In this document: piece after piece, positions 19,795 to 32,678 of the stretch
Layout of the letters: each line of letters begins with the position of its first letter
Numbering within the stretch: the first letter of the stretch is position 1
IMG/VR virus record: IMGVR_UViG_3300025834_000005
Length of the DNA: 64,000 nt
Strand: one strand, 5' to 3'
From: a virus
Made by a program: the position numbers and the translations under genes
The notes under the pieces: generated by a model
Seen by the model: the letters and a program-made list of their open reading frames with translations, nothing else
Databases searched by the model: none
Told to the model about the DNA's origin: nothing

Positions 19795-20124
19795 ATGAGT
19801 ATGATGAGAATAAATAATATGAGTTATAGTGGCAACAACATAGTTATTTCCAAAGGAAAGGTTATAATTGATGGCGTTGACGTAACACCTGATTCAAAAA
19901 AAATCAACATTGTTGTTGACGGTAACATCGATAAATTGAATGTGGATACTTGCGATACACTACAAATAACTGGTGATGTGGACACAGTGTCTACTATGTC
20001 TGGCGACGTTGATATAACTGGTAATGTTACTGGCAGTGTTAAAACTATGTCTGGCGATGTTAAATGCGAAAATATCGGCGGTGGCGTATCTACTATGTCT
20101 GGCGATATCAAATACAGAAAATAA
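19795..20124 (+). CDS. beta-helix repeat protein, bactofilin-like (polymer-forming)
   Basis: Repeated (S/K)TMSGD(V/I) units and G-x-V/I periodicity; the DNA repeat actatgtctggcga occurs three times. Confidence 0.4.
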   Translation: MSMMRINNMSYSGNNIVISKGKVIIDGVDVTPDSKKINIVVDGNIDKLNVDTCDTLQITGDVDTVSTMSGDVDITGNVTGSVKTMSGDVKCENIGGGVSTMSGDIKYRK

Positions 20125-20813
20125 TGAAATTTTTAATTCAAATAGATAAAGGCAGAGTAATACATGATTTTGCCTTCACATTGCTTGAGAGTATTGAGTA
20201 TCTAAACTGGATTTCAGACGAAAAAATAGTGACGTACAGGCTCACTGAAAACTCAATGCCAGCTGGTTTTGTGCCGATAGGTACTGTTGAGTTTGTTAGC
20301 GACTACATTGAGAAATATTCAGGTAGTAGACCTAAGCCTATAAATATACCAGCTGAATTAATGTCACATGAATTTACCCATAGGCATGTGAAGAACGGTA
20401 CTGAACTGGACATTGTTCAGAAGTCATTTGTAAAATCGAGTGACCACATCAAGTCATTCGCAGAGATTTGCGATCATGCACCAATGGGTAACTACCAAAT
20501 ATCTGATATTATCGAGATTGAGAGCGAATGGAGAGCATTTGTATACAATGGTAAGTTAGTTGGGCTTCAAAATTATTCTGGAAGTTTTACCGAGTTTCCC
20601 AACGTGTACTCAATTCAATGTATGATTAATGCTTATAAGTCAGCACCCATAGCATACACATTAGATGTTGCAATTACAAAAGGCGGATGGACTTCGGTAA
20701 TTGAGGTTCATGACTTTTTTAGCTGTGGATTATACGGATTTGCTGATCACAAAATACTACCATTCATGTTTTCAAGATGGTATGGCGAATATATACGTAA
20801 TTTAGCTTACTAA
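20124..20813 (+). CDS. ATP-grasp fold protein (phage DUF4343-like)
   Basis: SEWRAFVYNGKLVGLQNYSG and a C-terminal ..VIEVHDFFSCGLYG pattern; start at ATG 20124 (TAATG overlap). Confidence 0.45.
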   Translation: MKFLIQIDKGRVIHDFAFTLLESIEYLNWISDEKIVTYRLTENSMPAGFVPIGTVEFVSDYIEKYSGSRPKPINIPAELMSHEFTHRHVKNGTELDIVQKSFVKSSDHIKSFAEICDHAPMGNYQISDIIEIESEWRAFVYNGKLVGLQNYSGSFTEFPNVYSIQCMINAYKSAPIAYTLDVAITKGGWTSVIEVHDFFSCGLYGFADHKILPFMFSRWYGEYIRNLAY

Positions 20814-23958: not shown

Positions 23959-24114
23959 AAATACCCAACCCAAAAACAGAAATTGCTTATTGGGAAGAGG
24001 GACAGAAAAATCCATACCCTTGGTATAAGAAAGGGTTTTTCAAAAAGTATCTAAGAAAGAAATTTCTACGAAAAATATTCGCACAGGATAATAACAATCA
24101 TAAATAATAAAAAC

Positions 24115-24483
24115 ATGTATAAAGAGAACGAAGTAGAAGGAACTGTCTTAGAATTTGACGGCGAGGTAATTGCAACAGCTGAACAATGTAACGGCGAAAT
24201 AATTCCGACAAAGGAATTATCAAATAATAATGGTTCATTCAAAGGATTTAGTCCTGCTGAATATTATCTGTTAACAGTTAAGTCATTATTGCTATCGCAA
24301 TTATCATTAATGCGTAATGTATTCCCAGATAGTGACGCATGGTATTGCGGTTCAGCTATTATCGGCGATCTTAGCAATTGTAGAAATTTGAGTTTTGTAT
24401 TTGGCTCAGAAGAAGATGCCGAATCCATTAAAGAAGGCTCAGATGTTTACGTTGAATTACCTTATCCTGTAGTAAATGAATAA
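24115..24483 (+). CDS. hypothetical protein
   Basis: ORF track. Confidence 0.5.
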   Translation: MYKENEVEGTVLEFDGEVIATAEQCNGEIIPTKELSNNNGSFKGFSPAEYYLLTVKSLLLSQLSLMRNVFPDSDAWYCGSAIIGDLSNCRNLSFVFGSEEDAESIKEGSDVYVELPYPVVNE

Positions 24484-24694
24484 TTGGATTAAATTAGAAG
24501 CACAATTTCCAGCAAATGGTCGAGAGGTTATTTGCTGGAATGGCACATCTGCTGTAATGGCTATCTATTTCGATGGTATCGGAGGTGGCTTTCAGGCTCA
24601 ACGCTATGCGACAATTGGTGATAGAATATCAGTATTATACTGGAATAATGTAACTCATTGGATGCCAAAACCCTTAAAACCAGAGGAATTGTGA
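24476..24694 (+). CDS. DUF551-like protein
   Basis: WIKLEAQFPANGREVICWNG...NVTHWMPKPLKPE. Confidence 0.5.
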   Translation: MNNWIKLEAQFPANGREVICWNGTSAVMAIYFDGIGGGFQAQRYATIGDRISVLYWNNVTHWMPKPLKPEEL

Positions 24695-24963
24695 GCATAC
24701 TTCAAGATATCATCGAATCATATGATGACGAAACATTTTTAAAAGCCGATGGCTTCGACGAAGCAATTATAGGCGTTGATGAAGCCACTATGAGACTAAT
24801 CTATTCAGTATCCAAATGTTTGGATATATTAATCAAACGTGATGGACTGTTATGGGAAGAAGCTGTTGAGCATTTCAACTTCAATGTAAGCGGAGCATAT
24901 ATGGGTGTGAAAACGCCAATCTGGTGTGAAGATCAATTTGAATCCTTTCGTGATGAAAAATAA
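24658..24963 (+). CDS. hypothetical protein (conserved phage family; start may be GTG 24691)
   Basis: GFDEAIIGVD...AVEHFNFNVSGAYMG; GTGA overlap at 24691-24694. Confidence 0.5.
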   Translation: MDAKTLKTRGIVSILQDIIESYDDETFLKADGFDEAIIGVDEATMRLIYSVSKCLDILIKRDGLLWEEAVEHFNFNVSGAYMGVKTPIWCEDQFESFRDEK

Positions 24964-25007
24964 TCTACAATCACCCCGAAAAATATTTCGAAAATAATTA
25001 AAGATTT

Positions 25008-25037
25008 TTGTAACATTTGAAAAGTTCTTACGTATAA
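25008..25037 (+). promoter_or_regulatory. ECF-type promoter copy TTGTAAC-N16-CGTATAA
   Basis: -35 at 25008-25014, -10 at 25031-25037; heads the TROVE/RNA unit. Confidence 0.6.
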
Positions 25038-25067
25038 CGAAGAAACAATAATTAAAACAATAAAAAT

Positions 25068-26501
25068 ATGAGTAAATTGAACCCTATTTTAAAAAGTGGC
25101 GTTTCTGATTTAAAATCAGATGAAAGACTTGCTGGTGGATTTGGAACCAGAGCAGCTAAACAAGACGAATTAGCTCTATTACGTAGAGTTGTTTTAGCGA
25201 ACCTATTATGGGAAAACATTGCGTATGCTAACGGTGAAGATGTTTCAACACAGATCAGCCAGTTGATTCCGCAATGTAATCCTCAAGATGTTGCTGATCT
25301 TGCTGTTGAGGCGAGACTTGAGCAGAAATTGCGTCATACTCCTTTGTTTATTTGTGTTGAAATGCTGAAACACGTTGGATATTCTGCGTTGGTTGCCGAT
25401 ATCTTACCAAAGATTATCACAAGAGCAGACATGATTACAGACTTTCTTGCTATCTACAAGAAACAGAATGGCGGTAAGCTAAAGCCTTTGGCTGCTGCTG
25501 CTAAGAAAGGTTTGGCGAAAGCATTCGATAACTTTAACGAATACCAATTCGCTAAATATGACAGGGATGCCGAGATCAAGTTAAGGGATGCTATGTTTTT
25601 AGCTCACCCAAAACCATCTTCACAGGAAAAGATTGAACTTTACAAGAAAGTTGCTGATCGTACTTTGAAAACTCCTGATACATGGGAAGTTGCTTTATCG
25701 ACAGGTAAAGATAAGAAAGCCACATGGGAGAGATTGATCGATGAAAAGAAAATCGGTGGTTTGGCAATGTTGCGCAATGTACGTAATATGGTTCAGTCGG
25801 GTGTTAACTCGAATAGCATTAGAAAGGGATTGAAAAATCTAAATAGTTCGATGTTATTGCCTTTCAATTTCTTAACAGCCTCAAGGTTTGCACCTGAGTA
25901 TTCGAGAGATATTGAGGATGCTATGGTTGAGTCTTATAAGAATCTTCCTAAATTATCTGGAAAGACATTATTCATTGTCGATATTTCAGGCTCAATGGGT
26001 GCTAAATTATCTGACAAGTCGGGAATGTCCAGAATGGATGCTGCTTGTGCAATGGCTATGCTTGCGATTAATCAATGTGAAAACTATGAAATCGTAGCAA
26101 CTGCTGGGAATGATGGTTCGCATAAAGGTGCTCATAAGCATATTCTAAATCCAAAAAAGGGATTCGATGTGTTCAAGCAAATTCAAAGTGCTGGAAGTGA
26201 AATCGGCTGTGGTGGTATTTTCACCAGACAGTGTATCGAATGGTGTAAAGCCAACGTATCTGATACATTCGACAGAATTATCATATTCTCTGACTCACAG
26301 GATTGCGATCTTATGAATGCGAGAATTCCAGCACCTTACGGCAAATATAACTATATTTGCGACGTATCGTCAAATGAGAGAGGCGTTAACTTTAGGAATG
26401 TATGGGATGCCGAAATTACAGGTATGTCTGAAAACTTCCTAACATATATCGCTGCAAACGAAGGTCTAACAAATAAATTTGACGACCAGAGTGAAAATTA
26501 A
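25068..26501 (+). CDS. rsr: Ro60-like TROVE domain + vWA domain protein (Rsr-like)
   Basis: LLRRVVLANLLWENIAYANGED...RLEQKLRHTPLFICVEM and GGLAMLRNVRNM fit the TROVE pattern (compare Ro60 ..LLRNLGKM). C-terminal MIDAS FIVDISGSMG ... IIIFSDSQD. Confidence 0.8.
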   Translation: MSKLNPILKSGVSDLKSDERLAGGFGTRAAKQDELALLRRVVLANLLWENIAYANGEDVSTQISQLIPQCNPQDVADLAVEARLEQKLRHTPLFICVEMLKHVGYSALVADILPKIITRADMITDFLAIYKKQNGGKLKPLAAAAKKGLAKAFDNFNEYQFAKYDRDAEIKLRDAMFLAHPKPSSQEKIELYKKVADRTLKTPDTWEVALSTGKDKKATWERLIDEKKIGGLAMLRNVRNMVQSGVNSNSIRKGLKNLNSSMLLPFNFLTASRFAPEYSRDIEDAMVESYKNLPKLSGKTLFIVDISGSMGAKLSDKSGMSRMDAACAMAMLAINQCENYEIVATAGNDGSHKGAHKHILNPKKGFDVFKQIQSAGSEIGCGGIFTRQCIEWCKANVSDTFDRIIIFSDSQDCDLMNARIPAPYGKYNYICDVSSNERGVNFRNVWDAEITGMSENFLTYIAANEGLTNKFDDQSEN

Positions 26502-26504
26502 TCA

Positions 26505-26554
26505 ACAAAGGTACTATTTATACTTGCAAATTAAATATTAAATAGTACCTTTGT
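26505..26554 (+). other. long perfect hairpin after the TROVE stop (attenuator or processing site; no T run)
   Basis: ACAAAGGTACTATTTA / TAAATAGTACCTTTGT 16-bp stem, 18-nt loop. Confidence 0.5.
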
Positions 26555-26562
26555 AAAAATAT

Positions 26563-26634
26563 TAAGTAATAGCGTTCGGTAAGGGTTACTTCCTCCATAA
26601 ATGAAATCACACCCTACCATCAGTTCTTTGCTTA
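26563..26634 (+). ncRNA. Y-RNA-like stem-loop RNA 1 (conserved module + anticodon-arm-like apex)
   Basis: Ends pair TAAGTAA-t-AG / CT-TTGCTTA; internal loop cgttc/atcagtt; helix GGTAaGGGT/ACCCTACC; apex ACTTC-10nt-GAAAT. Confidence 0.6.
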
Positions 26635-26642
26635 CAAAAATT

Positions 26643-26712
26643 TAGATAATGGCGTTCGATACGGTTACTTCCTTTTACGAAATATTCACCGTATTATCTT
26701 TTTCCTTATCTA
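26643..26712 (+). ncRNA. Y-RNA-like stem-loop RNA 2 (conserved module + tRNA-Lys(UUU)-like anticodon arm)
   Basis: TAGATAA-t-GG / CC-TTATCTA; loop cgttc/atcttttt; helix GATACGG/CCGTATT; apex ACTTC-CTTTTAC-GAAAT. Confidence 0.65.
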
Positions 26713-26719
26713 TTTATAT

Positions 26720-26785
26720 CGGAGTGTGTCTTGGCTTGTAATGCAGTATACGGTATTATATGAGGATCGTCCCCTCGCACACCGA
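26720..26785 (+). ncRNA. degenerate tRNA-like element (acceptor-like pairing + T-arm-like hairpin, no canonical D/anticodon arms)
   Basis: CGGAGTG/CACACCG (one A-A mismatch); TGAGG-ATCGTCC-CCTCG keeps G53, T55, C56, C61 equivalents; only 34 nt between. Confidence 0.3.
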
Positions 26786-26788
26786 CAA

Positions 26789-26900
26789 ATGAATAATGGC
26801 GTTAGAAACAGTTTCATCAACTCAATCTCAATAATTAAGATCAACTCAATCTCAATAATTAAGTAAATACAAAACTCTGTCTCTCATTTTCCTTATTCAT
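26789..26900 (+). ncRNA. Y-RNA-like stem-loop RNA 3 (conserved module, long apex with 24-bp tandem duplication)
   Basis: ATGAATAA-t-GG / CC-TTATTCAT; loop cgtta/tcatttt; helix GAAACAG/CTGTCTC (one A-C mismatch). Confidence 0.6.
26816..26863 (+). repeat. perfect 24-bp tandem duplication
   Basis: atcaactcaatctcaataattaag occurs twice, inside the apex of RNA 3. Confidence 0.9.
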
Positions 26901-26909
26901 CTATATTAT

Positions 26910-27033
26910 AGGGCGTTAGCTCAGTTGGTAGAGCGCGAAATTCTCTTTTACACCTTTTCCCTTTATTGTGGCGTTCGTAAAAGTTACTTCATTCTTAATG
27001 ACGAGGTCGGTGGTTCGAGTCCATCATGCCCTA
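26910..27033 (+). tRNA. tRNA-Lys(CUU)-like gene with a 51-nt insertion between D arm and anticodon arm
   Basis: Acceptor AGGGCGT/ATGCCCT; U8; D arm GCTC-AGTTGGTA-GAGC; insertion 26936-26986; anticodon arm CTTCA-TTCTTAA-TGACG (one U-C mismatch); AGGTC; T arm GGTGG-TTCGAGT-CCATC. Confidence 0.6.
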
Positions 27034-27035
27034 CG

Positions 27036-27120
27036 AAAAACAATAGTGTTCGAGACAGTTTCATCAAAAAAATCGAAATTTTTATACAAAAAACTCTGTC
27101 TTAACTGTTCTTTGTTTTTT
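27036..27120 (+). ncRNA. Y-RNA-like stem-loop RNA 4 (conserved module; apex related to RNA 3)
   Basis: AAACAA-t-AG / CT-TTGTTT; loop tgttc/aactgtt; helix GAGACAG/CTGTCTT; apex TTTCATCAA...ATACAAAAAACT. Confidence 0.6.
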
Positions 27121-27128
27121 TTGAATAT

Positions 27129-27165
27129 AAAAGGTCAACATACTCAAAATATGTTGACCTTTTTT
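27129..27165 (+). terminator. rho-independent terminator closing the TROVE/RNA unit
   Basis: AAAAGGTCAACATA / TATGTTGACCTTTT 14-bp stem, 7-nt loop, T run. Confidence 0.8.
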
Positions 27166-27193
27166 GTAACCTTTTTTATCGAGTTACGTATAA
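27164..27193 (+). promoter_or_regulatory. ECF-type promoter copy TTGTAAC-N16-CGTATAA
   Basis: -35 at 27164-27170, -10 at 27187-27193. Confidence 0.6.
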
Positions 27194-27219
27194 TATAGAA
27201 ACAATTTAAATTTATTGAA

Positions 27220-27777
27220 ATGTTAAAAAATACTGAAATTAAGATCATCGACTTTAGAACGTCGTTAAACAAAGAAAACGAAAATGAATACGTTATTCAG
27301 CCTAATTATAAGGTTCAATACGAGAACGTTATAATTGAATTAAAAGGTAAAACATTTCTCGTTAATATTGGCTGTCAGAGTGTGACAATCAATAAGGATA
27401 ATGTATTACCAATCGCTCAAGAGTTTGAGGGTATCGATAAAAAACCAGTGCTTTACAAACTAATTTTGCCAAATGATGATAAACGTGAATTAAAATCAAT
27501 GAGAAATCTCCCAATATATAAAGAGTCTTCGCCATCCTTACACATATCGTCAAATGGTAAAGTTTATGACAGAGAGAAATTTAGCATCGTTGAAAAAACG
27601 ATAACGCCATCTAATGAGTATTTTAAGAAAAGTGATACGTTGAGCACTGTGCAATATTTAAAAAAAGACCGTAGATTGTACAGGGACGACATACAAAATA
27701 TAAGAAAAATTTTAAATACAATGTGCGATCATTTTAACATTGAATACCCTGACGTTAAAGACTCTAAAAATGAGTAG
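27220..27777 (+). CDS. hypothetical protein
   Basis: ORF track. Confidence 0.5.
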   Translation: MLKNTEIKIIDFRTSLNKENENEYVIQPNYKVQYENVIIELKGKTFLVNIGCQSVTINKDNVLPIAQEFEGIDKKPVLYKLILPNDDKRELKSMRNLPIYKESSPSLHISSNGKVYDREKFSIVEKTITPSNEYFKKSDTLSTVQYLKKDRRLYRDDIQNIRKILNTMCDHFNIEYPDVKDSKNE

Positions 27778-27907
27778 TTCCGAGGTTAAAATAGAGTTTC
27801 CATCGCCAAAATTAATCGCATGGCTGGTTGCGGAACGAAAGCGTCAAAAAGAGAAAATGGATATGTTAAAGATCACCGAAACAGATACAAATATAATAAG
27901 AAAATGA
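27770..27907 (+). CDS. small hypothetical protein (45 aa)
   Basis: ATG 27770 to TGA 27905-27907; ATGA overlap with ATG 27904. Confidence 0.3.
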   Translation: MSSSEVKIEFPSPKLIAWLVAERKRQKEKMDMLKITETDTNIIRK

Positions 27908-28188
27908 AAAAAGCTAAAGAAGTTAATTTAAAAAAAATACTGGCACAAGTATTTGCCATTGCGGCTAATTCTGAATCGTTTTTATCACTCGGTTTGAAAG
28001 ATGAACAGTTATTACAGACAGTTGTATTAACCGCAATGAAAGAAGCCTGTGAGCAGACAATCAAGCTTTGTGTCGATAACGCTGCCGTCACAACAAAAAA
28101 AGTGCCTACTGGTAGTTTTGGTATATTCTATCCTTTAAAAATTGTCGATAAAAAATCAATAAAAAACACTTTAAAACAAATAGTATAA
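27904..28188 (+). CDS. hypothetical protein (the track ORF starts at 27820; ATG 27904 preferred)
   Basis: In-frame MKKAKEV start coupled to the upstream small ORF. Confidence 0.45.
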   Translation: MKKAKEVNLKKILAQVFAIAANSESFLSLGLKDEQLLQTVVLTAMKEACEQTIKLCVDNAAVTTKKVPTGSFGIFYPLKIVDKKSIKNTLKQIV

Positions 28189-28189
28189 T

Positions 28190-28459
28190 ATGGAATTGAA
28201 AATGAATAGTAACTTCTCAGTGCTTTACGATGGTAAGCCAATGATGAAAGCAATTACAACCCAGAAAAGGGATATGACCGAAGATGAAAAAAGAAATTTC
28301 ATCGAAAAGTTGAATCTGGCGTATAAAACCGTCAACGAGCTTACTGATCAATTAGCCGAAATTTACAAGCTACACTCAAACAGAAATCTGAGCGATGCTA
28401 TGGTCTCTGCGGCTGAATGCCAACGATCTATAAATGTTTTTAACAGCTCCCTACAGTAA
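28190..28459 (+). CDS. hypothetical protein
   Basis: ORF track. Confidence 0.5.
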   Translation: MELKMNSNFSVLYDGKPMMKAITTQKRDMTEDEKRNFIEKLNLAYKTVNELTDQLAEIYKLHSNRNLSDAMVSAAECQRSINVFNSSLQ

Positions 28460-28650
28460 TGCCGATATTTAAAAGTGTTAAGGTGGAATTAGAAAATGGC
28501 GATATAGTTGATATCACTGATCTACCGCAAGATAAATATGAGTATTTCTTAAATATGATTGTTATGATAAACAATGCATACAGATTAATGATACTTAAAG
28601 GCGAAATAATTAATTCAAATAATTATGAATCACAACCCTTACAATCTTGA
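28459..28650 (+). CDS. hypothetical protein
   Basis: TAATG overlap. Confidence 0.45.
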   Translation: MPIFKSVKVELENGDIVDITDLPQDKYEYFLNMIVMINNAYRLMILKGEIINSNNYESQPLQS

Positions 28651-28816
28651 AGTTGGCGACGAAGTCGTTTTAGACGCCGACTTTGCTAATCATGGTCTTG
28701 TTACTATTGAGTCATTCACGCCACTCAAACTATATGCTATGGTGCGATCAGGCACTACTTGCTGGGAAACTATGACAGGTAGATTAACTCCAAAAACAGA
28801 AAAAGATGTTAAATAA
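28625..28816 (+). CDS. hypothetical protein
   Basis: ORF track. Confidence 0.45.
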   Translation: MNHNPYNLEVGDEVVLDADFANHGLVTIESFTPLKLYAMVRSGTTCWETMTGRLTPKTEKDVK

Positions 28817-29186
28817 TGAGAAAATAAGTCTCTATGAGAAAATAGAAAGCCATCTTATTAATAAATTTAAGGATGATATGATCTCAGAATTAAAGAAAAA
28901 TAGGAATAAAGGCACTATTTTAGACATGACAGACTTTAACGCCATAATAGCTGAAATGGAGTATCATAAAGCCAAACTATTTTTAGCTATACGAGTAAAA
29001 AATGAAGGTGCTATACGTGAATATATTGCAGACACAGCTAATTATTTGTTCGCTATAGGTAATTTGTTCGGACTTTACGATGAAGAGGCTAATAATCCAG
29101 AAACATGCTTCGAAATTAATAAAGAAGCCGAATTATTCATAGAGATTCCAATTAACAAGAAATCATTAGGGCAAACTCTTATTTAA
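28806..29186 (+). CDS. hypothetical protein, possible second MazG-like all-alpha NTP pyrophosphohydrolase
   Basis: AEMEYHKAKL...IREYIADTANYLFAIGNLFG resembles the MazG E..E / E..D..N helix pair; weak. Confidence 0.3.
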   Translation: MLNNEKISLYEKIESHLINKFKDDMISELKKNRNKGTILDMTDFNAIIAEMEYHKAKLFLAIRVKNEGAIREYIADTANYLFAIGNLFGLYDEEANNPETCFEINKEAELFIEIPINKKSLGQTLI

Positions 29187-29187
29187 A

Positions 29188-29430
29188 ATGGCATTATTAA
29201 CTGATAACTCTGATTTTAGTACCGTCTATTTCCGAATTATAACTGGAAACGATGGTGATTACTATCCGCAGATCATTTCTGAGGACGAAAATGGTAATCT
29301 GAATACGGCTGGTATAAGGGTTTGTATGAGCGGAGGAAATGCTCCTACTGATGTTAAATTGGCTATTGCTAATTTATACCGAGCATTGGAGAAACATCAT
29401 CTGAATGAATATCCAAATGATGCTCCATAA
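29188..29430 (+). CDS. hypothetical protein
   Basis: ORF track. Confidence 0.5.
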   Translation: MALLTDNSDFSTVYFRIITGNDGDYYPQIISEDENGNLNTAGIRVCMSGGNAPTDVKLAIANLYRALEKHHLNEYPNDAP

Positions 29431-29676
29431 TTACCAAGTCTTTTTATTAAAAAGATAAACAGGCATATACATCCATCCTGTAGGCCATTGACGATTATCC
29501 GTAACATTTGTATTTGGCGTAATCGGTGTAGATGCTATAATATTTCTGGGGTTCTTTGGATTAGAACGACCATTTCTCTCTTTAGTCTCAACCCCAACCG
29601 TTAATTTTATCATAAAGTATTTACATATAAATACGAAAATATGGATAATAGTTACTAATTTCTGTAACAAAAACAA
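29431..29676 (-). CDS. possible antisense-oriented small gene (hypothetical)
   Basis: Only long ORF in an otherwise 276-nt gap; its 5' end overlaps the promoter copy, so the true start may be internal. Confidence 0.3.
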   Translation of the reverse strand: MFLLQKLVTIIHIFVFICKYFMIKLTVGVETKERNGRSNPKNPRNIIASTPITPNTNVTDNRQWPTGWMYMPVYLFNKKTW

Positions 29677-29691
29677 TTTAATTACGTATAA
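29662..29691 (+). promoter_or_regulatory. ECF-type promoter copy (CTGTAAC-N16-CGTATAA)
   Basis: -35 at 29662-29668, -10 at 29685-29691. Confidence 0.55.
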
Positions 29692-29706
29692 AAAGAAAAA
29701 AGAACT

Positions 29707-29952
29707 ATGATTTTTAAAAAAATTACAGATACATGTAAACCACCGTTTAATCAGCCAATACTTTTACTTGAAAGTAGAAATAAAGTAAATACAGTATCAA
29801 CAGGGCATTTAACGTCTATAGATGCAAAAGGCTTTAATTTCTCAACGTCAAATATGGGTGACATATTCGGCATATTCGGTTCGAATTTGAATCCATTTAA
29901 GCCGACGCATTGGTGTGAAATTATTATAGAATTGGAGGACTCATGTCAATAA
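29707..29952 (+). CDS. hypothetical protein
   Basis: ORF track. Confidence 0.5.
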   Translation: MIFKKITDTCKPPFNQPILLLESRNKVNTVSTGHLTSIDAKGFNFSTSNMGDIFGIFGSNLNPFKPTHWCEIIIELEDSCQ

Positions 29953-30200
29953 AACTAAATGACAGATGTGCCAATTTTAAAGTAGCCATGAATATCGCAG
30001 AAATGCCTGTTGATGACGTTGGTATCGAATTTATAGTAGGGGTGTTCGATCTCTTAAATCAAAAAAGAGGCGAAGCTACTATTAGAGAAATTTTAAAACT
30101 AAAAAATAAAATTATCAGTAAATATGTTGTAGACGCTCAACAACAGCAACTTAATAGCATGAATGATATAAATGACGAAAATATAAACGAAAATGAATAG
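29943..30200 (+). CDS. hypothetical protein
   Basis: ORF track. Confidence 0.45.
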   Translation: MSIKLNDRCANFKVAMNIAEMPVDDVGIEFIVGVFDLLNQKRGEATIREILKLKNKIISKYVVDAQQQQLNSMNDINDENINENE

Positions 30201-31262: not shown

Positions 31263-32678
31263 ATGAACGACAAAGAACTAATATTACCAAATAATAAGTT
31301 GATCACATTTAATGATCAGCAATATGATGGCATTAATTTAATGCGTCAATGGCTTAAAACCGATAATAAGTTCTTCACTTTAGCTGGCTATGCTGGAACA
31401 GGTAAAACTACCATAGTAAAGAAAATACTTGATGAATCCAGCAGAAAAATAGCCGTATCAGCACCTACACATAAAGCTAAGAAAGTTGTTGCACGATCAA
31501 CATCACAAGAAGCTTTAACATTACAAGCTATATGTGGATTAAGACCAGATGTAGACCTTGATAATTTCAATCCAAATAGTCCCGAATTCGGAGTAATCGC
31601 AATACCTAAGATCAGCAATTTTGATATTTTAGCTATTGATGAAGCATCTATGATCAACGCTGATTTATTCGCTTTAATTAAAAGGTTATCCGAAAAAGCA
31701 GCTACTCAGATATTATTCATGGGTGACCCTGCACAGATACCGCCCATAAATGAGAAAGAAAGTGTTGTTTTCAACGATTCGTCAATCTTAATGCATTGGC
31801 TTACAAAGATAGAACGTCAAACTGACGGCAATGCATTGTGTGTTATTTACGATGCATTAAGAAACAACCTAAACAGATCGGACGGCGGATTCAACAGAAT
31901 CACAGATATTAACAGCGATGGTGAAGGCGTTATCTTTACAAAGAGTAAAAGATTTTTTAGAGATCGCTTACTAAAGGAATTTTCATCAGAAGAGTTTAAA
32001 AGAGATACTGATCACGTTAAATTAATAGCTTGGAAGAACGAGACTGTGATGTATTCTAATAAAATGATACGTGACAGTTTATTTGGTGCTAATAGCGATA
32101 TAGTTGAGATTAACGACCTTTTAATGGGCTATCGAAGTATTGGCGATAAAAGTCGGTTATATAATATTATTGAGAATTCGGCGGATTACAGAATTGTAAC
32201 CAAATCTGATCTGGAACAAAGCGAATTGGATATATTCGGCTATTATGTCAAGCTACGTGAAAATACAGGCTTTGGAAGTTACACATTCCGAGACGTTTTC
32301 ATTGTAGATACCAATGACGTGAGTAACATGCATTTATATGCTGAATATCATGACTTTTTCAGAGATATGGCAAGTAAAAATAAAAAACTATGGACTAAAT
32401 ATTACGATTTTAGACGTAATAATATGATTCTACGCAACATCACTGAATTCAGAAATGGTACTTTACGTGGACGTAAGGATATTATTGTAAAAGATTTGGA
32501 TTATGGATTTGCTATCACAGGTCATAAATCACAAGGTAGTACCTATAAGAATGTTTTCATTCTTGAGGATGATATTGACGAAAACTGGTCTATTAAAGAA
32601 CGAAATCAGATAAAATACGTTGCTATGACACGACCATCGAAGTCTGCAACCATTTTAACATCAAATGCGATGGATTAA
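31263..32678 (+). CDS. SF1 RecD/Dda-like DNA helicase
   Basis: Walker A AGYAGTGKTT, Walker B ILAIDEASMI, GDPAQIPPI, GHKSQGSTYKNVFI. Confidence 0.8.
   Translation: MNDKELILPNNKLITFNDQQYDGINLMRQWLKTDNKFFTLAGYAGTGKTTIVKKILDESSRKIAVSAPTHKAKKVVARSTSQEALTLQAICGLRPDVDLDNFNPNSPEFGVIAIPKISNFDILAIDEASMINADLFALIKRLSEKAATQILFMGDPAQIPPINEKESVVFNDSSILMHWLTKIERQTDGNALCVIYDALRNNLNRSDGGFNRITDINSDGEGVIFTKSKRFFRDRLLKEFSSEEFKRDTDHVKLIAWKNETVMYSNKMIRDSLFGANSDIVEINDLLMGYRSIGDKSRLYNIIENSADYRIVTKSDLEQSELDIFGYYVKLRENTGFGSYTFRDVFIVDTNDVSNMHLYAEYHDFFRDMASKNKKLWTKYYDFRRNNMILRNITEFRNGTLRGRKDIIVKDLDYGFAITGHKSQGSTYKNVFILEDDIDENWSIKERNQIKYVAMTRPSKSATILTSNAMD

What the first reader, a model, noticed from the sequence alone, without database searches (positions are those of the whole stretch)
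26910..27033. Lys-type tRNA-like gene interrupted between D arm and anticodon arm by a circularly permuted copy of the module
Canonical tRNA parts are present. These are a 7-bp acceptor stem (AGGGCGT/ATGCCCT, one G-U), U8, D arm GCTC-AGTTGGTA-GAGC, variable AGGTC and T arm GGTGG-TTCGAGT-CCATC. A plausible anticodon arm is CTTCA-TTCTTAA-TGACG, with U33, anticodon CUU and A37. The D arm and anticodon arm are separated by 51 extra nt (26936-26986), so the gene is 124 nt long. The insertion is not at the canonical 37/38 intron site. It is too short for a group I intron. It contains the conserved module in permuted order. The 7-bp helix (26945-26951 / 26977-26983) opens toward the tRNA body. The CC/GG step is capped by a 9-nt loop instead of the RNA termini. 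Topologically this is a Ro-module plus tRNA-like chimera, as described for YrlA-type Y RNAs. Here, however, the ends are in the acceptor stem, so it could in principle still be processed by RNase P/Z and perhaps charged.
Basis: partly seen in the sequence, partly recalled or inferred. Interest (0 to 1): 0.85.

Follow-up and report, generated by a model that had tools for sequence, protein, structure and literature searches.

The report
tRNA-shaped Y RNA beside phage Ro60
Next to the Ro60-like (TROVE) gene of a crAss-like gut phage lies a conserved 124-nt RNA gene that is a complete tRNA shape carrying an extra arm with the probable Ro-binding motif; it is the known bacterial Y RNA "YrlA" with its strand order rotated back to that of a normal tRNA, a form not found described in the papers that could be searched here.

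Summary
Window 26910-27033 (+) has a 7-bp acceptor stem, D arm, variable loop and T arm (Rfam tRNA 42.6 bits against a cut-off of 29), with 51 extra nt; ARAGORN calls nothing. It lies 412 nt downstream of a TROVE/Ro60-like ORF in a crAss-like phage, inside a non-coding array with four simpler stem-loops that carry the same internal-loop module.

The element is a family. 51 distinct full-length phage copies were found, including crAss001, plus Chryseobacterium and other bacterial copies. In a census chosen by the TROVE protein, 46 of 80 viral loci have one. Covariation supports the acceptor, T, 27-28/42-43, helix A and CC/GG pairs.

A covariance model built from rotated copies (cut in the cap loop, joined at the acceptor) finds genuine YrlA Y RNAs full length, at 66.9-109 bits. 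So this is YrlA in tRNA strand order.

The arm branches inside the anticodon stem (between 28 and 29), not between the D and anticodon arms. "Lys" is not a conserved identity: the closest relative has CCU.

Expression, TROVE binding, RNase P/CCA processing and charging are inferred, not shown. Verdict: a new variant of a known kind.

The parts
25068..26501 (+). TROVE / Ro60-like protein gene (477 aa), the presumed protein partner
   Evidence: Pfam TROVE E 1.6e-16; Ro60 vWA domain 22.9 bits, below its cut-off. 60-61% identical to crAss001 gp96 'TROVE domain-containing protein'. Matches PDB 9l5y/9kop 'TROVE domain-containing protein' at 5e-18.
26566..26631 (+). Free-standing Y-like stem-loop 1. 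Terminal stem GUAA-U-AG / CU-UUGC; internal loop CGUUC / AUCAGUU; helix GGUA(A)GGG / CCCUACC; then UUACUUCC in the apical loop.
   Evidence: Repeat family D1; the MFE fold recovers the stems; the rotated model R2 aligns it end to end at 18.7 bits, E 1e-3; compensatory changes in the L001 ortholog.
26645..26710 (+). Free-standing Y-like stem-loop 2. GAUAA-U-GG / CC-UUAUC; internal loop CGUUC (5 nt) / AUCUUUUU (8 nt); helix GAUACGG / CCGUAUU; UUACUUCC in the loop.
   Evidence: R2 aligns 26645-26709 end to end with the tRNA body deleted, 28.9 bits, E 3.8e-6.
26791..26898 (+). Free-standing Y-like stem-loop 3. GAAUAA-U-GG / CC-UUAUUC; CGUUA / UCAUUUU; helix GAAACAG / CUGUCUC with one A-C mismatch. 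The long apical loop holds a 24-nt repeat twice.
   Evidence: the L001 ortholog keeps the helix with changes. It ends 11 nt before the tRNA-shaped gene.
26910..27033 (+). The finding: a tRNA-shaped Y RNA of 124 nt. Acceptor stem, D arm, split anticodon stem, extra arm, variable loop, T arm and discriminator A.
   Evidence: Rfam tRNA 42.6 bits. Family model R1 113 bits, the only hit in the 64-kb window. Covariation.
26936..26937 (+). Nucleotides 27-28 (CG) of the anticodon stem; they pair with 27002-27003 (CG, nt 42-43).
   Evidence: Paired in 35 of 37 relatives, with both sides changed in 19 of 37 at each pair.
26938..26988 (+). The 51-nt extra arm. Linker AAAUUCU; helix A 26945-26951 / 26977-26983; internal loop ACCUUUU (26952-26958) / CGUUC (26972-26976); CC 26959-26960 / GG 26970-26971; 9-nt cap 26961-26969; conserved linker UUACU 26984-26988.
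   Evidence: Helix A 84.6% paired and CC/GG 90% paired on a structure-blind MAFFT alignment, with compensatory changes. AG(U/A)UACUUC was fixed by the search pattern in 36 of the 37 aligned rows (L005 was not pattern-selected); it also occurs in YrlA-order RNAs found without that pattern.
26989..27001 (+). Distal mini-hairpin UCA-UUCUUAA-UGA. With 27-28/42-43 it completes a 5-bp anticodon-like stem with a 7-nt loop (U33-like, CUU, A37-like).
   Evidence: A composite 5-bp stem is possible in 52 of 58 distinct relatives, against a mean of 7.4 in a permutation control. The triplet varies among close relatives.
27039..27122 (+). Free-standing Y-like stem-loop 5. AACAA-U-AG / CU-UUGUU; UGUUC / AACUGUU; helix GAGACAG / CUGUCUU; followed by a U run. 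It starts 5 nt after the tRNA-shaped gene.
27129..27170 (+). Terminator-like hairpin (14-bp perfect inverted repeat) followed by T's; it closes the non-coding array before the next ORF at 27220.
   Evidence: Inverted repeat I2 and the sequence. The simple terminator scan did not call it.

Best explanation
This is a Y RNA, the non-coding RNA partner of a Ro60/TROVE ring protein. It is homologous to the bacterial YrlA family but built in the strand order of an ordinary tRNA.

Structure. The 5' and 3' ends meet in a normal 7-bp acceptor stem. The D arm, variable loop and T arm are canonical. The anticodon stem is split: two outer pairs (27-28 with 42-43) plus a 3-bp mini-hairpin with a 7-nt anticodon-like loop. 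From its 5' strand, between nt 28 and 29, a capped arm branches off. That arm carries the conserved asymmetric internal loop flanked by helix A and a GG/CC step. The same loop sits in the terminal stem of YrlA-type RNAs and of the four simple Y-like RNAs beside it.

Most likely mechanism (inferred):
- The roughly 700-nt array is transcribed with or just after the TROVE gene, which is an early gene in crAss001.
- The tRNA shape lets host RNase P and 3'-end enzymes cut the RNA out. The same cuts would trim the neighbouring Y-like RNAs.
- The arm docks on the phage TROVE ring.
- The tRNA-like body serves as the stable effector-binding or gating domain, as proposed for YrlA.

Shown here: the anatomy, conservation, covariation, linkage to TROVE, and homology to YrlA under rotation. 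Inferred: transcription, processing, protein binding and function.
For: Linkage to TROVE:
- The element lies 412 nt downstream of a TROVE ORF on the same strand.
- 45 of 72 phage loci found by an RNA pattern have TROVE on the same strand, mostly within 170-800 nt.
- In a census chosen by the TROVE protein alone, 46 of 80 viral loci carry a tRNA-order element within 1.5 kb (R1 at least 66 bits) and 12 carry a YrlA-order one.
- 24 of 120 bacterial pattern hits have TROVE in the DNA held for the locus (at most 8 kb).

Covariation on a structure-blind alignment of 37 sequences:
- 88% of cells are paired, against 62% in shuffles.
- The covariation score is 0.68, against 0.18 in shuffles (0 of 500 reach it) and 0.13-0.15 when partners are slid.
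- All 7 acceptor pairs, 4 of 5 T-stem pairs, both 27-28/42-43 pairs, 5 of 7 helix A pairs and both CC/GG pairs show changes on both sides.

Homology to YrlA:
- The rotated model R2 gives full-length matches at Rfam YrlA sites. Examples are the Xanthomonas phage locus L103 2207-2339 (89.6 bits, E 2e-18) and eight more at 66.9-81.8 bits in Rhizobium and Caulobacter phage loci and IMG/VR locus L009 (compared).
- It scores 90-109 bits in Sphingobacterium and other bacterial TROVE loci, where Rfam's YrlA model scores 36-45 bits.
- Those YrlA-order RNAs share GGUGUAG, AGUUACUUC and even a CGA-CUGUUAA-UCG mini-hairpin.
- The internal loop has the same 5 nt / 8 nt geometry as the Rfam YrlA consensus. 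It starts with GGCG, like the published GNCGAAN0-1G motif; L048 has an exact GGCGAAG (PMC4201824).

The tRNA order is unambiguous here. R1 scores 113 bits and R2 only 43.8 bits. There is a single copy, with no T arm upstream and no D arm downstream.
Against: - No transcript, RNA ends or protein binding have been observed for any member.
- The internal loop differs from the published YrlA motif: GGCGUUCG here against GNCGAANG.
- The single-sequence fold is no more stable than shuffles (z = -0.45). RNAalifold on the MAFFT alignment recovers only the tRNA arms.
- 27 pattern-found phage loci show no TROVE gene in the DNA held. At least four of those contigs do encode TROVE elsewhere; for the others this is unknown.
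- The 37-sequence alignment was collected with a pattern that fixes the D arm and AGWTACTTC. Conservation of those two stretches is therefore partly built in.
- E-values from R1 and R2 are rough because calibration was shortened.
Confidence: 0.75

Rival explanations
1. It is a working decoder tRNA (tRNA-Lys, anticodon CUU). It either tolerates an extra arm or has the 51 nt removed as an intron before use.
For: All tRNA parts are present and score above Rfam's tRNA cut-off. A composite 5-bp anticodon stem with a 7-nt loop, a U33-like base and A37/A38-like bases can form. The window has no other tRNA gene.
Against: - The triplet is not conserved. It is CUU here but CCU in the closest relative, which has an identical acceptor 5' strand and differs by one base in the 3' strand. 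Three Chryseobacterium species have UUU, UUU and AUU. Other members have loops of 3-9 nt or no distal hairpin at all.
- The 'insert' is the most function-like part. It is conserved in sequence and pairing, and it is shared with free-standing RNAs and with YrlA, where it belongs to the mature RNA.
- 51 nt is far too short for a self-splicing group I intron, and Rfam finds no intron family.
- No bulge-helix-bulge splicing enzyme is known in bacteria (stated in bioRxiv 10.1101/312249).
- ARAGORN rejects it.
Confidence: 0.06
2. Its main job is punctuation. The tRNA shape is only a handle for RNase P and RNase Z, which cut the polycistronic precursor and release the flanking simple Y-like RNAs.
For: The packing is tight. 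Y-like 3 ends 11 nt before the acceptor 5' end, and Y-like 5 starts 5 nt after the discriminator. The acceptor stem is a full 7 bp. The literature names that length as a major RNase P determinant, and M. smegmatis YrlA with a 7-bp stem is cut by RNase P (PMC4201824).
Against: A mere handle would not need a conserved, covarying arm that carries the shared module. Many loci have the tRNA-shaped RNA in a different arrangement, for example two tandem copies in L010. This role is compatible with the main explanation as a second function.
Confidence: 0.1
3. It is a dead tRNA gene disrupted by chance insertion of a local repeat, with no function of its own.
For: The module is repeated five times within 500 nt. 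Single-sequence folding energy is unremarkable.
Against: 51 distinct phage sequences plus bacterial chromosomal copies keep the same architecture, with compensatory changes in every helix. TROVE proteins only 38-60% identical to this one keep it next to them.
Confidence: 0.02

Closest known systems
YrlA (Rfam RF02553 'Y RNA-like'; Chen et al. 2014, PMC4201824; structure PDB 6CU1, Wang et al. 2018, bioRxiv 10.1101/312249)
   Same: - Encoded beside a Ro60/TROVE gene on the same strand.
- tRNA-like D arm (UAGCUCA..GGUAGAGC), T arm, variable region and a 6-7-bp acceptor-like stem.
- The Ro-type stem extends from the anticodon-stem position.
- A 5-nt/8-nt asymmetric internal loop that begins with GGCG.
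- A conserved (C/U)UA-containing linker after the inner helix.
- The rotated model R2 matches YrlA-site RNAs full length at 66.9-109 bits.
   Different: - The strand order is rotated. In YrlA the RNA ends are in the Ro stem, the acceptor stem is a closed hairpin, and the T arm comes before the D arm. Here the ends are in an open 7-bp acceptor stem, the D arm comes before the T arm, and the Ro-type stem is capped.
- RF02553 gives no hit on the window element even at E up to 10.
- The motif is GGCGUUCG rather than GNCGAANG.
- An extra anticodon-like mini-hairpin is present. It is absent from the Rfam consensus but present in the YrlA-order RNA of Xanthomonas phage locus L103 shown.
Deinococcus radiodurans Yrn1 (Y RNA)
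   Same: According to PMC4201824, Yrn1 also has its T- and D-like elements oriented differently from YrlA relative to the RNA 5' end. The stem-loop between them occupies the anticodon-arm position. It binds the Ro60 ortholog Rsr.
   Different: In Yrn1 the Ro-binding stem is formed by the RNA ends, so it takes the place of the acceptor stem. The D arm is doubtful and no true acceptor stem exists (PMC4201824). Here the acceptor stem is real and the Ro-type stem is an internal capped arm.
Canonical tRNA (Rfam RF00005), including class II tRNAs with a long extra arm
   Same: Acceptor stem, U8, D arm, variable loop, T arm with TTCGA, discriminator base, and a 5-bp composite anticodon stem with a 7-nt loop. 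It scores above the tRNA gathering cut-off.
   Different: A 51-nt arm leaves the 5' strand of the anticodon stem (28/29). The long arm of class II tRNAs is the variable arm (nt 44-48). The triplet is not conserved and ARAGORN does not accept it.
Circularly permuted tRNA genes of red algae and one archaeon; two-piece (permuted) tmRNA
   Same: They are natural precedents for circular permutation of tRNA-shaped RNAs. Wang et al. already likened YrlA to permuted pre-tRNAs (bioRxiv 10.1101/312249).
   Different: Those are processed back into working tRNA or tmRNA. Here both orders seem to be end products of one Y RNA family, and the one in this window is the unpermuted order.

Membership tests
tRNA (RF00005) | Cloverleaf with acceptor, D, anticodon and T arms that scores above the curated cut-off | tested here: met
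   42.6 bits against a gathering score of 29, covering model positions 1-71, but with 64 nt in place of 13 anticodon-arm positions.
tRNA (RF00005) | A continuous anticodon arm with an anticodon conserved among orthologs (a decoding identity) | tested here: not met
   The stem is split by a 51-nt arm. The triplet is CUU here, CCU in L001, and UUU/UUU/AUU in three Chryseobacterium species. Loops of 3-9 nt occur and five members have no distal hairpin. ARAGORN finds 0 genes.
tRNA gene with an intron (group I, or archaeal bulge-helix-bulge) | An insert that is removable: a group I core of 200 nt or more in the anticodon loop, or a bulge-helix-bulge motif together with a splicing endonuclease | tested here: not met
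   The insert is 51 nt and lies in the stem, not at 37/38. No intron family appears in Rfam at E up to 10. The insert is conserved and covaries as a hairpin of its own. A formal bulge-helix-bulge search was not run.
YrlA (RF02553) | Encoded within a few kb of a Ro60/TROVE gene on the same strand | tested here: met
   412 nt downstream on the same strand. 46 of 80 TROVE-selected viral loci carry the same kind of element.
YrlA (RF02553) | tRNA-like domain with D arm, T arm and acceptor-like stem | tested here: met
   The D arm UAGCUCAGUUGGUAGAGC resembles the YrlA consensus UAGCUCAauuuGGUAGAGC.
YrlA (RF02553) | Ro-binding stem formed by the RNA's 5' and 3' ends; closed acceptor stem; T arm 5' of the D arm | tested here: not met
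   The ends lie in the acceptor stem, the Ro-type stem is capped by a 9-nt loop, and the D arm is 5' of the T arm. Model R1 (tRNA order) scores 113 bits and R2 (YrlA order) 43.8 bits.
YrlA (RF02553) | Match to the family covariance model at its gathering score (69 bits) | tested here: not met
   No YrlA hit in 26450-27250 at E up to 10. The YrlA-order RNAs examined in other phage and bacterial TROVE loci also score only 30-50 bits.
YrlA (RF02553) | 5'-strand motif GNCGAAN0-1G in the Ro-binding stem (PMC4201824) | tested here: inconclusive
   The window has GGCGUUCG, so GNCG and the final NG fit but AA is replaced by UU. Relatives have GGCGAAG (L048), GGCGAAUC (L026) and GGUGUAGA (crAss001).
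YrlA (RF02553) | Homology of all parts once strand order is set aside | tested here: met
   The rotated model R2 matches YrlA sites full length (positions 1-132) at 66.9-109 bits in phage and bacterial TROVE loci. These coincide with RF02553 hits.
Y RNA (functional class) | Bound by a Ro60 ortholog in vivo | not testable with these tools
   Needs immunoprecipitation or a gel shift with the phage TROVE protein.
Y RNA (functional class) | Expressed as a stable small RNA | not testable with these tools
   No RNA-seq data can be queried here. In crAss001 the TROVE gene itself is reported as an early gene (PMC8375218).

The most novel reading that the evidence does not exclude
The RNA is matured exactly like a tRNA: cut by RNase P, given a CCA tail and perhaps charged. 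Its anticodon-like loop keeps U33 and U36-A37-A38 in most copies that have a 7-nt loop, which is the loop signature of tRNAs that read ANN codons (Lys, Asn, Thr, Arg). It would therefore act as a tRNA look-alike that couples the phage Ro60 ring to tRNA-handling machinery. One possible role is bait or sensor for host anticodon-cutting defence nucleases, or for tRNA repair, early in crAss-like phage infection.

A linked evolutionary reading: this tRNA-order form is the ancestor from which YrlA arose by tandem duplication. That would replace the 'dimer of two ordinary tRNAs' model with a dimer of a tRNA that already carried a Ro-binding arm.
Probability: 0.12. Interest if true: 0.85.

Novelty: new variant of a known kind. 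Interest (0 to 1): 0.64.

Why it matters
Y RNAs and their Ro60 partners are known from animals and bacteria, and the bacterial YrlA type is famous as a circularly permuted tRNA mimic. How it arose is an open question. The published model derives it from a dimeric tRNA transcript (bioRxiv 10.1101/312249).

This locus shows the same RNA in unpermuted tRNA order, with a real open acceptor stem. Both orders exist next to related TROVE genes and sometimes in tandem arrays. That gives a concrete route, permutation by duplication, that can be tested by phylogeny.

An open 7-bp acceptor stem also makes RNase P cleavage, CCA addition and even charging plausible for a Y RNA. The element is present in crAss001, a cultured member of the crAss-like phages, which the literature describes as ubiquitous and highly abundant in the human gut virome (PMC8375218). 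There the TROVE gene is expressed early, so the experiments are feasible.

Practically, Rfam-based annotation will call these genes tRNAs, while dedicated tRNA finders miss them.

Tried and rejected
- ARAGORN on the window and 13 related loci never calls the element.
- Megablast of 24000-30000 against the phage collection found nothing. The protein search was needed to place the window among crAss-like phages.
- Single-sequence folding z-scores are uninformative for the element and for the four simple stem-loops: z from +0.08 to -1.77.
- RNAalifold on the MAFFT alignment recovers only the acceptor, D and T stems, because the arm is length-variable. The named-structure count was used instead.
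- The distal mini-hairpin is misaligned by MAFFT (30.9% paired). It was tested separately with a register-free script and a permutation control.
- A fixed-spacing pattern for the module elsewhere in the window gave 6 hits against 2.0 expected. Only one was real, so the pattern was too rigid to be useful.
- The promoter/terminator scan found nothing convincing.
- An intron reading and a dead-gene reading were considered and rejected (see the rival explanations).
- For loci lacking TROVE in the held flank, Pfam on 10 neighbouring ORFs showed no common alternative partner.
- Possible ambiguity from tandem arrays was checked. A tRNA-order model can bridge two YrlA-order copies, as in L123 and L302. 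It was excluded for the window (single copy) and for L010 (different acceptor stems).
- Literature: the 2020 Annual Review on bacterial Ro60 and Y RNAs and the supplements of Chen 2014 are not held. Eight full-text searches found no description of a tRNA-order Y RNA or of Y RNAs in crAss-like phages.
Full report
**1. What is in the sequence**

- a 7-bp acceptor stem, AGGGCGT/ATGCCCT, with one G-U pair;
- T8, and the D arm GCTC-AGTTGGTA-GAGC;
- the variable loop AGGTC and the T arm GGTGG-TTCGAGT-CCATC;
- the discriminator base A;
- 51 extra nt, which hold a perfect 7-bp helix (26945-26951 / 26977-26983) and a CC/GG step closed by a 9-nt loop.

Rfam's tRNA model matches exactly these 124 nt at 42.6 bits (cut-off 29). 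64 nt stand in place of 13 anticodon-arm positions. It is the only gathering-level Rfam hit in the 64-kb window. ARAGORN finds no tRNA at all. On its own the sequence folds no better than shuffles (z = -0.45), although the MFE structure does contain the acceptor, D, T and 7-bp helices.

**2. Context**

The ORF at 25068-26501 (+) is a TROVE/Ro60-like protein: Pfam TROVE E 1.6e-16, with a weak Ro60 vWA match. It is 60-61% identical to gp96 of Bacteroides phage crAss001 and its relatives, so the window comes from a crAss-like phage. In crAss001 this gene is reported as an early gene (PMC8375218).

Between its stop codon and the next ORF (27220) lie about 720 nt without genes. This stretch holds five copies of a motif, TRGYGTTMG-N5-GTTWCWTC. 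Four copies belong to simple stem-loops at 26566-26631, 26645-26710, 26791-26898 and 27039-27122. In each, the RNA ends form a terminal stem that finishes with GG/CC (or AG/CU). Next comes an asymmetric internal loop (5' CGUUC, 3' 7-8 nt such as AUCUUUUU). Then comes a 7-bp helix, and then a loop that begins UUACUUC or UUUCAUC. The fifth copy is the arm inside the tRNA-shaped gene. A terminator-like hairpin at 27129-27163 ends the array.

**3. It is a family**

- Long 'tRNA' hits of the same kind lie next to the TROVE gene in crAss001 (144 nt), PhiCrAssBcn17 and several IMG/VR contigs.
- A pattern search (D arm, 40-70 nt, AGWTACTTC) found 86 viral contigs. 51 distinct sequences have a complete acceptor stem and T arm.
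- 45 of 72 such loci have TROVE on the same strand, mostly 170-800 nt away.
- To avoid the bias of that pattern, 80 viral loci were chosen by the TROVE protein alone; at least 508 viral contigs encode a relative. 46 of the 80 carry a tRNA-order element within 1.5 kb (R1 at least 66 bits). 12 carry a YrlA-order element.
- In bacterial genomes most pattern hits are chance. Even so, 24 of 120 have TROVE in the DNA held for the locus (at most 8 kb). Full tRNA-order elements sit beside TROVE in three Chryseobacterium species, Bacteroidetes MAGs and a Spirochaetes MAG.

**4. Covariation and the corrected structure**

On a structure-blind MAFFT alignment of 37 sequences the named structure is 88% paired, against 62% in shuffles. 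The covariation score is 0.68, against 0.18 in shuffles (0 of 500 reach it) and 0.13-0.15 when the partners are slid.

| Helix | Cells paired |
|---|---|
| Acceptor | 98% |
| T stem | 99.5% |
| 27-28 / 42-43 | 94.6% |
| Helix A | 84.6% |
| CC/GG | 90% |

All of these helices show changes on both sides.

That works in only 16-17 of 37 sequences. The two nucleotides just after the D arm pair with 42-43 in 35 of 37. The arm therefore leaves the 5' strand of the anticodon stem between nt 28 and 29, making a three-way junction.

A register-free test asked whether a composite 5-bp stem can form: k outer pairs (k at least 2) plus 5-k pairs of a distal mini-hairpin. It can in 52 of 58 distinct sequences, against a mean of 7.4 (maximum 14) in a permutation control. 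34 of them have a 7-nt loop.

These loops look like anticodon loops (CUGUUAA, CUUUUAA, UUUGUAA, CUUCUAA; UUCUUAA here). The triplet, however, changes between close relatives. It is CUU here and CCU in L001, which has an identical acceptor 5' strand and one base changed in the 3' strand. Three Chryseobacterium species have UUU, UUU and AUU. Five members have a full 5-bp outer stem and no distal hairpin. 'Lys' is therefore not a conserved identity.

**5. The module and the link to YrlA**

Rfam's YrlA consensus was seen in Gordonia, Xanthomonas, Rhizobium and Caulobacter phage TROVE loci. It reads, from 5' to 3': terminal stem (cggCga), 5-nt loop, inner helix, CUA, short anticodon-like stem, T arm, closed acceptor hairpin, D arm (UAGCUCA..GGUAGAGC), the return strands, an 8-nt loop, and the terminal stem. 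That is the same list of parts as here, started at a different point.

To test this, 26 family members were rotated on the computer. Each was cut in the cap loop and joined at the acceptor ends with CCA. A covariance model, R2, was built from the rotated sequences.

- R2 gives full-length matches (model positions 1-132) at the Rfam YrlA sites. Nine score 66.9-89.6 bits in the Xanthomonas, Rhizobium and Caulobacter phage loci and in IMG/VR locus L009.
- It scores 90-109 bits in Sphingobacterium and other bacterial TROVE loci. There Rfam's YrlA model gives 36-45 bits at the same places.
- The aligned YrlA-order RNAs share GGUGUAG, AGUUACUUC and even a CGA-CUGUUAA-UCG mini-hairpin.
- R2 also aligns two of the window's simple stem-loops end to end with the whole tRNA body skipped: 26645-26709 at 28.9 bits and 26565-26632 at 18.7 bits. 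This confirms that the arm is the same module in permuted order.
- The unrotated window element gets no YrlA hit even at E up to 10. It scores 113 bits with the tRNA-order model R1 and 43.8 bits with R2.

Tandem arrays can make the order ambiguous, as in L123 and L302. The window has a single copy, and the two tandem copies in L010 have different acceptor stems. For these the tRNA order is certain.

**6. How it most likely works**

Shown here:
- a conserved, covarying, tRNA-shaped RNA gene with an extra arm;
- its linkage to TROVE;
- its homology to YrlA-type Y RNAs under rotation.

Inferred, by analogy with YrlA/Rsr (PMC4201824; bioRxiv 10.1101/312249):
- The arm binds the phage TROVE ring.
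- The tRNA body is the stable effector-binding or gating domain.
- The open 7-bp acceptor stem lets RNase P and 3'-end enzymes excise the RNA. M. smegmatis YrlA, which has a 7-bp stem, is cut by RNase P and receives CCA.
- These cuts would also trim the neighbouring RNAs, which lie 11 nt upstream and 5 nt downstream.

Confidence in this overall reading is about 0.75. The rivals fit the variation and conservation less well: a decoding tRNA with an extra arm or an intron, a pure processing handle, or a dead gene.

**7. Novelty**

YrlA has been described as resembling a circularly permuted tRNA, and a 'dimeric tRNA' origin has been proposed for it (bioRxiv 10.1101/312249). Eight full-text searches found no description of a Y RNA in tRNA strand order, or of Y RNAs in crAss-like phages. 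The main review and the supplements of Chen 2014 could not be read, so prior mention cannot be excluded.

I rate it a new variant of a known kind. Both orders occur beside TROVE proteins 44-86% identical to this one, and tandem arrays exist. That makes permutation by duplication a testable route between the two orders.

**8. Limits**

- Nothing here shows transcription, RNA ends, protein binding or function.
- The first alignment was gathered with a pattern that fixes the D arm and AGWTACTTC.
- E-values from R1 and R2 are rough.
- 27 pattern-found loci have no TROVE gene in the DNA held. At least four of those contigs encode one elsewhere.

Noticed in passing
window 26505-26554: A perfect 16-bp inverted repeat with an 18-nt loop lies 4 nt after the TROVE stop codon, between the gene and the RNA array. 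It could be a processing site, an attenuator or a terminator; no T run follows it on the + strand.
   Followed up: no
window 26816-26863: A 24-nt unit (ATCAACTCAATCTCAATAATTAAG) occurs twice in tandem inside the apical loop of Y-like stem-loop 3. The L001 ortholog has a different loop.
   Followed up: no
window 26719-26785: A G+C-richer branched hairpin (CGGAGUGUG...CGCACACCG, MFE -18 kcal/mol, z = -0.6) lies between Y-like stem-loops 2 and 3. It has no module. It may be another small RNA or a promoter region; one weak sigma-70-like match lies at 26731-26759.
   Followed up: partly
window 1-64000: There is no canonical tRNA gene in 64 kb of this crAss-like phage (ARAGORN 0; the only Rfam hit is the finding). 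In contrast, the loci taken from crAss001 and cr106_1 carry annotated tRNA genes.
   Followed up: no
window 20064-20813 and 31263-32678: An ORF with an R2K-clade ATP-grasp domain (Pfam R2K_2, E 4e-18) lies 4.3 kb upstream of the TROVE gene. An SF1 helicase-like ORF lies downstream. Most small ORFs around the locus have no Pfam match.
   Followed up: no
L010 2439-2716 and 2818-2924: This IMG/VR phage has two tandem tRNA-order Y RNAs with different acceptor stems upstream of TROVE. It also has a further Y-like RNA whose loop contains only a T arm (GCGGGTTCGACTCCCGC), reminiscent of YrlB/Yrn1-type RNAs.
   Followed up: partly
L012 4948-5086, L013 4929-5067 and many of L227-L300: crAss001-like loci have one or two further, weaker tRNA-order matches (47-62 bits, 125-139 nt) 150-500 nt downstream of the main element. 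These may be diverged paralogs. The window has only one.
   Followed up: no
L014 431-735, L005 5522-5829, L003 1593-2117: tmRNA-like genes (Rfam 52-74 bits) lie within 1-3 kb of the TROVE gene in three crAss-like contigs. In cr106_1 the gene is annotated as tmRNA with the tag DNTYRVAA.
   Followed up: no
L003 3001-4401: The TROVE reading frame of this crAss-like contig contains one in-frame stop codon. This could reflect stop-codon recoding in that phage lineage, or a pseudogene. Its tRNA-order element is also weaker (66.6 bits).
   Followed up: no
L039 6553-8040: In one phage contig that carries the element but has no TROVE gene in the DNA held, a 495-aa class I aminoacyl-tRNA synthetase-like ORF (Pfam tRNA-synt_1, E 3e-42) lies about 700 nt from the element.
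   Followed up: no
family-wide: The 7-nt distal loops almost always read Y-U-N-N-U-A-A, that is U33, U36, A37 and A38. This is the loop signature of tRNAs that decode ANN codons, while the first two triplet positions vary freely. The reason is unknown.
   Followed up: partly
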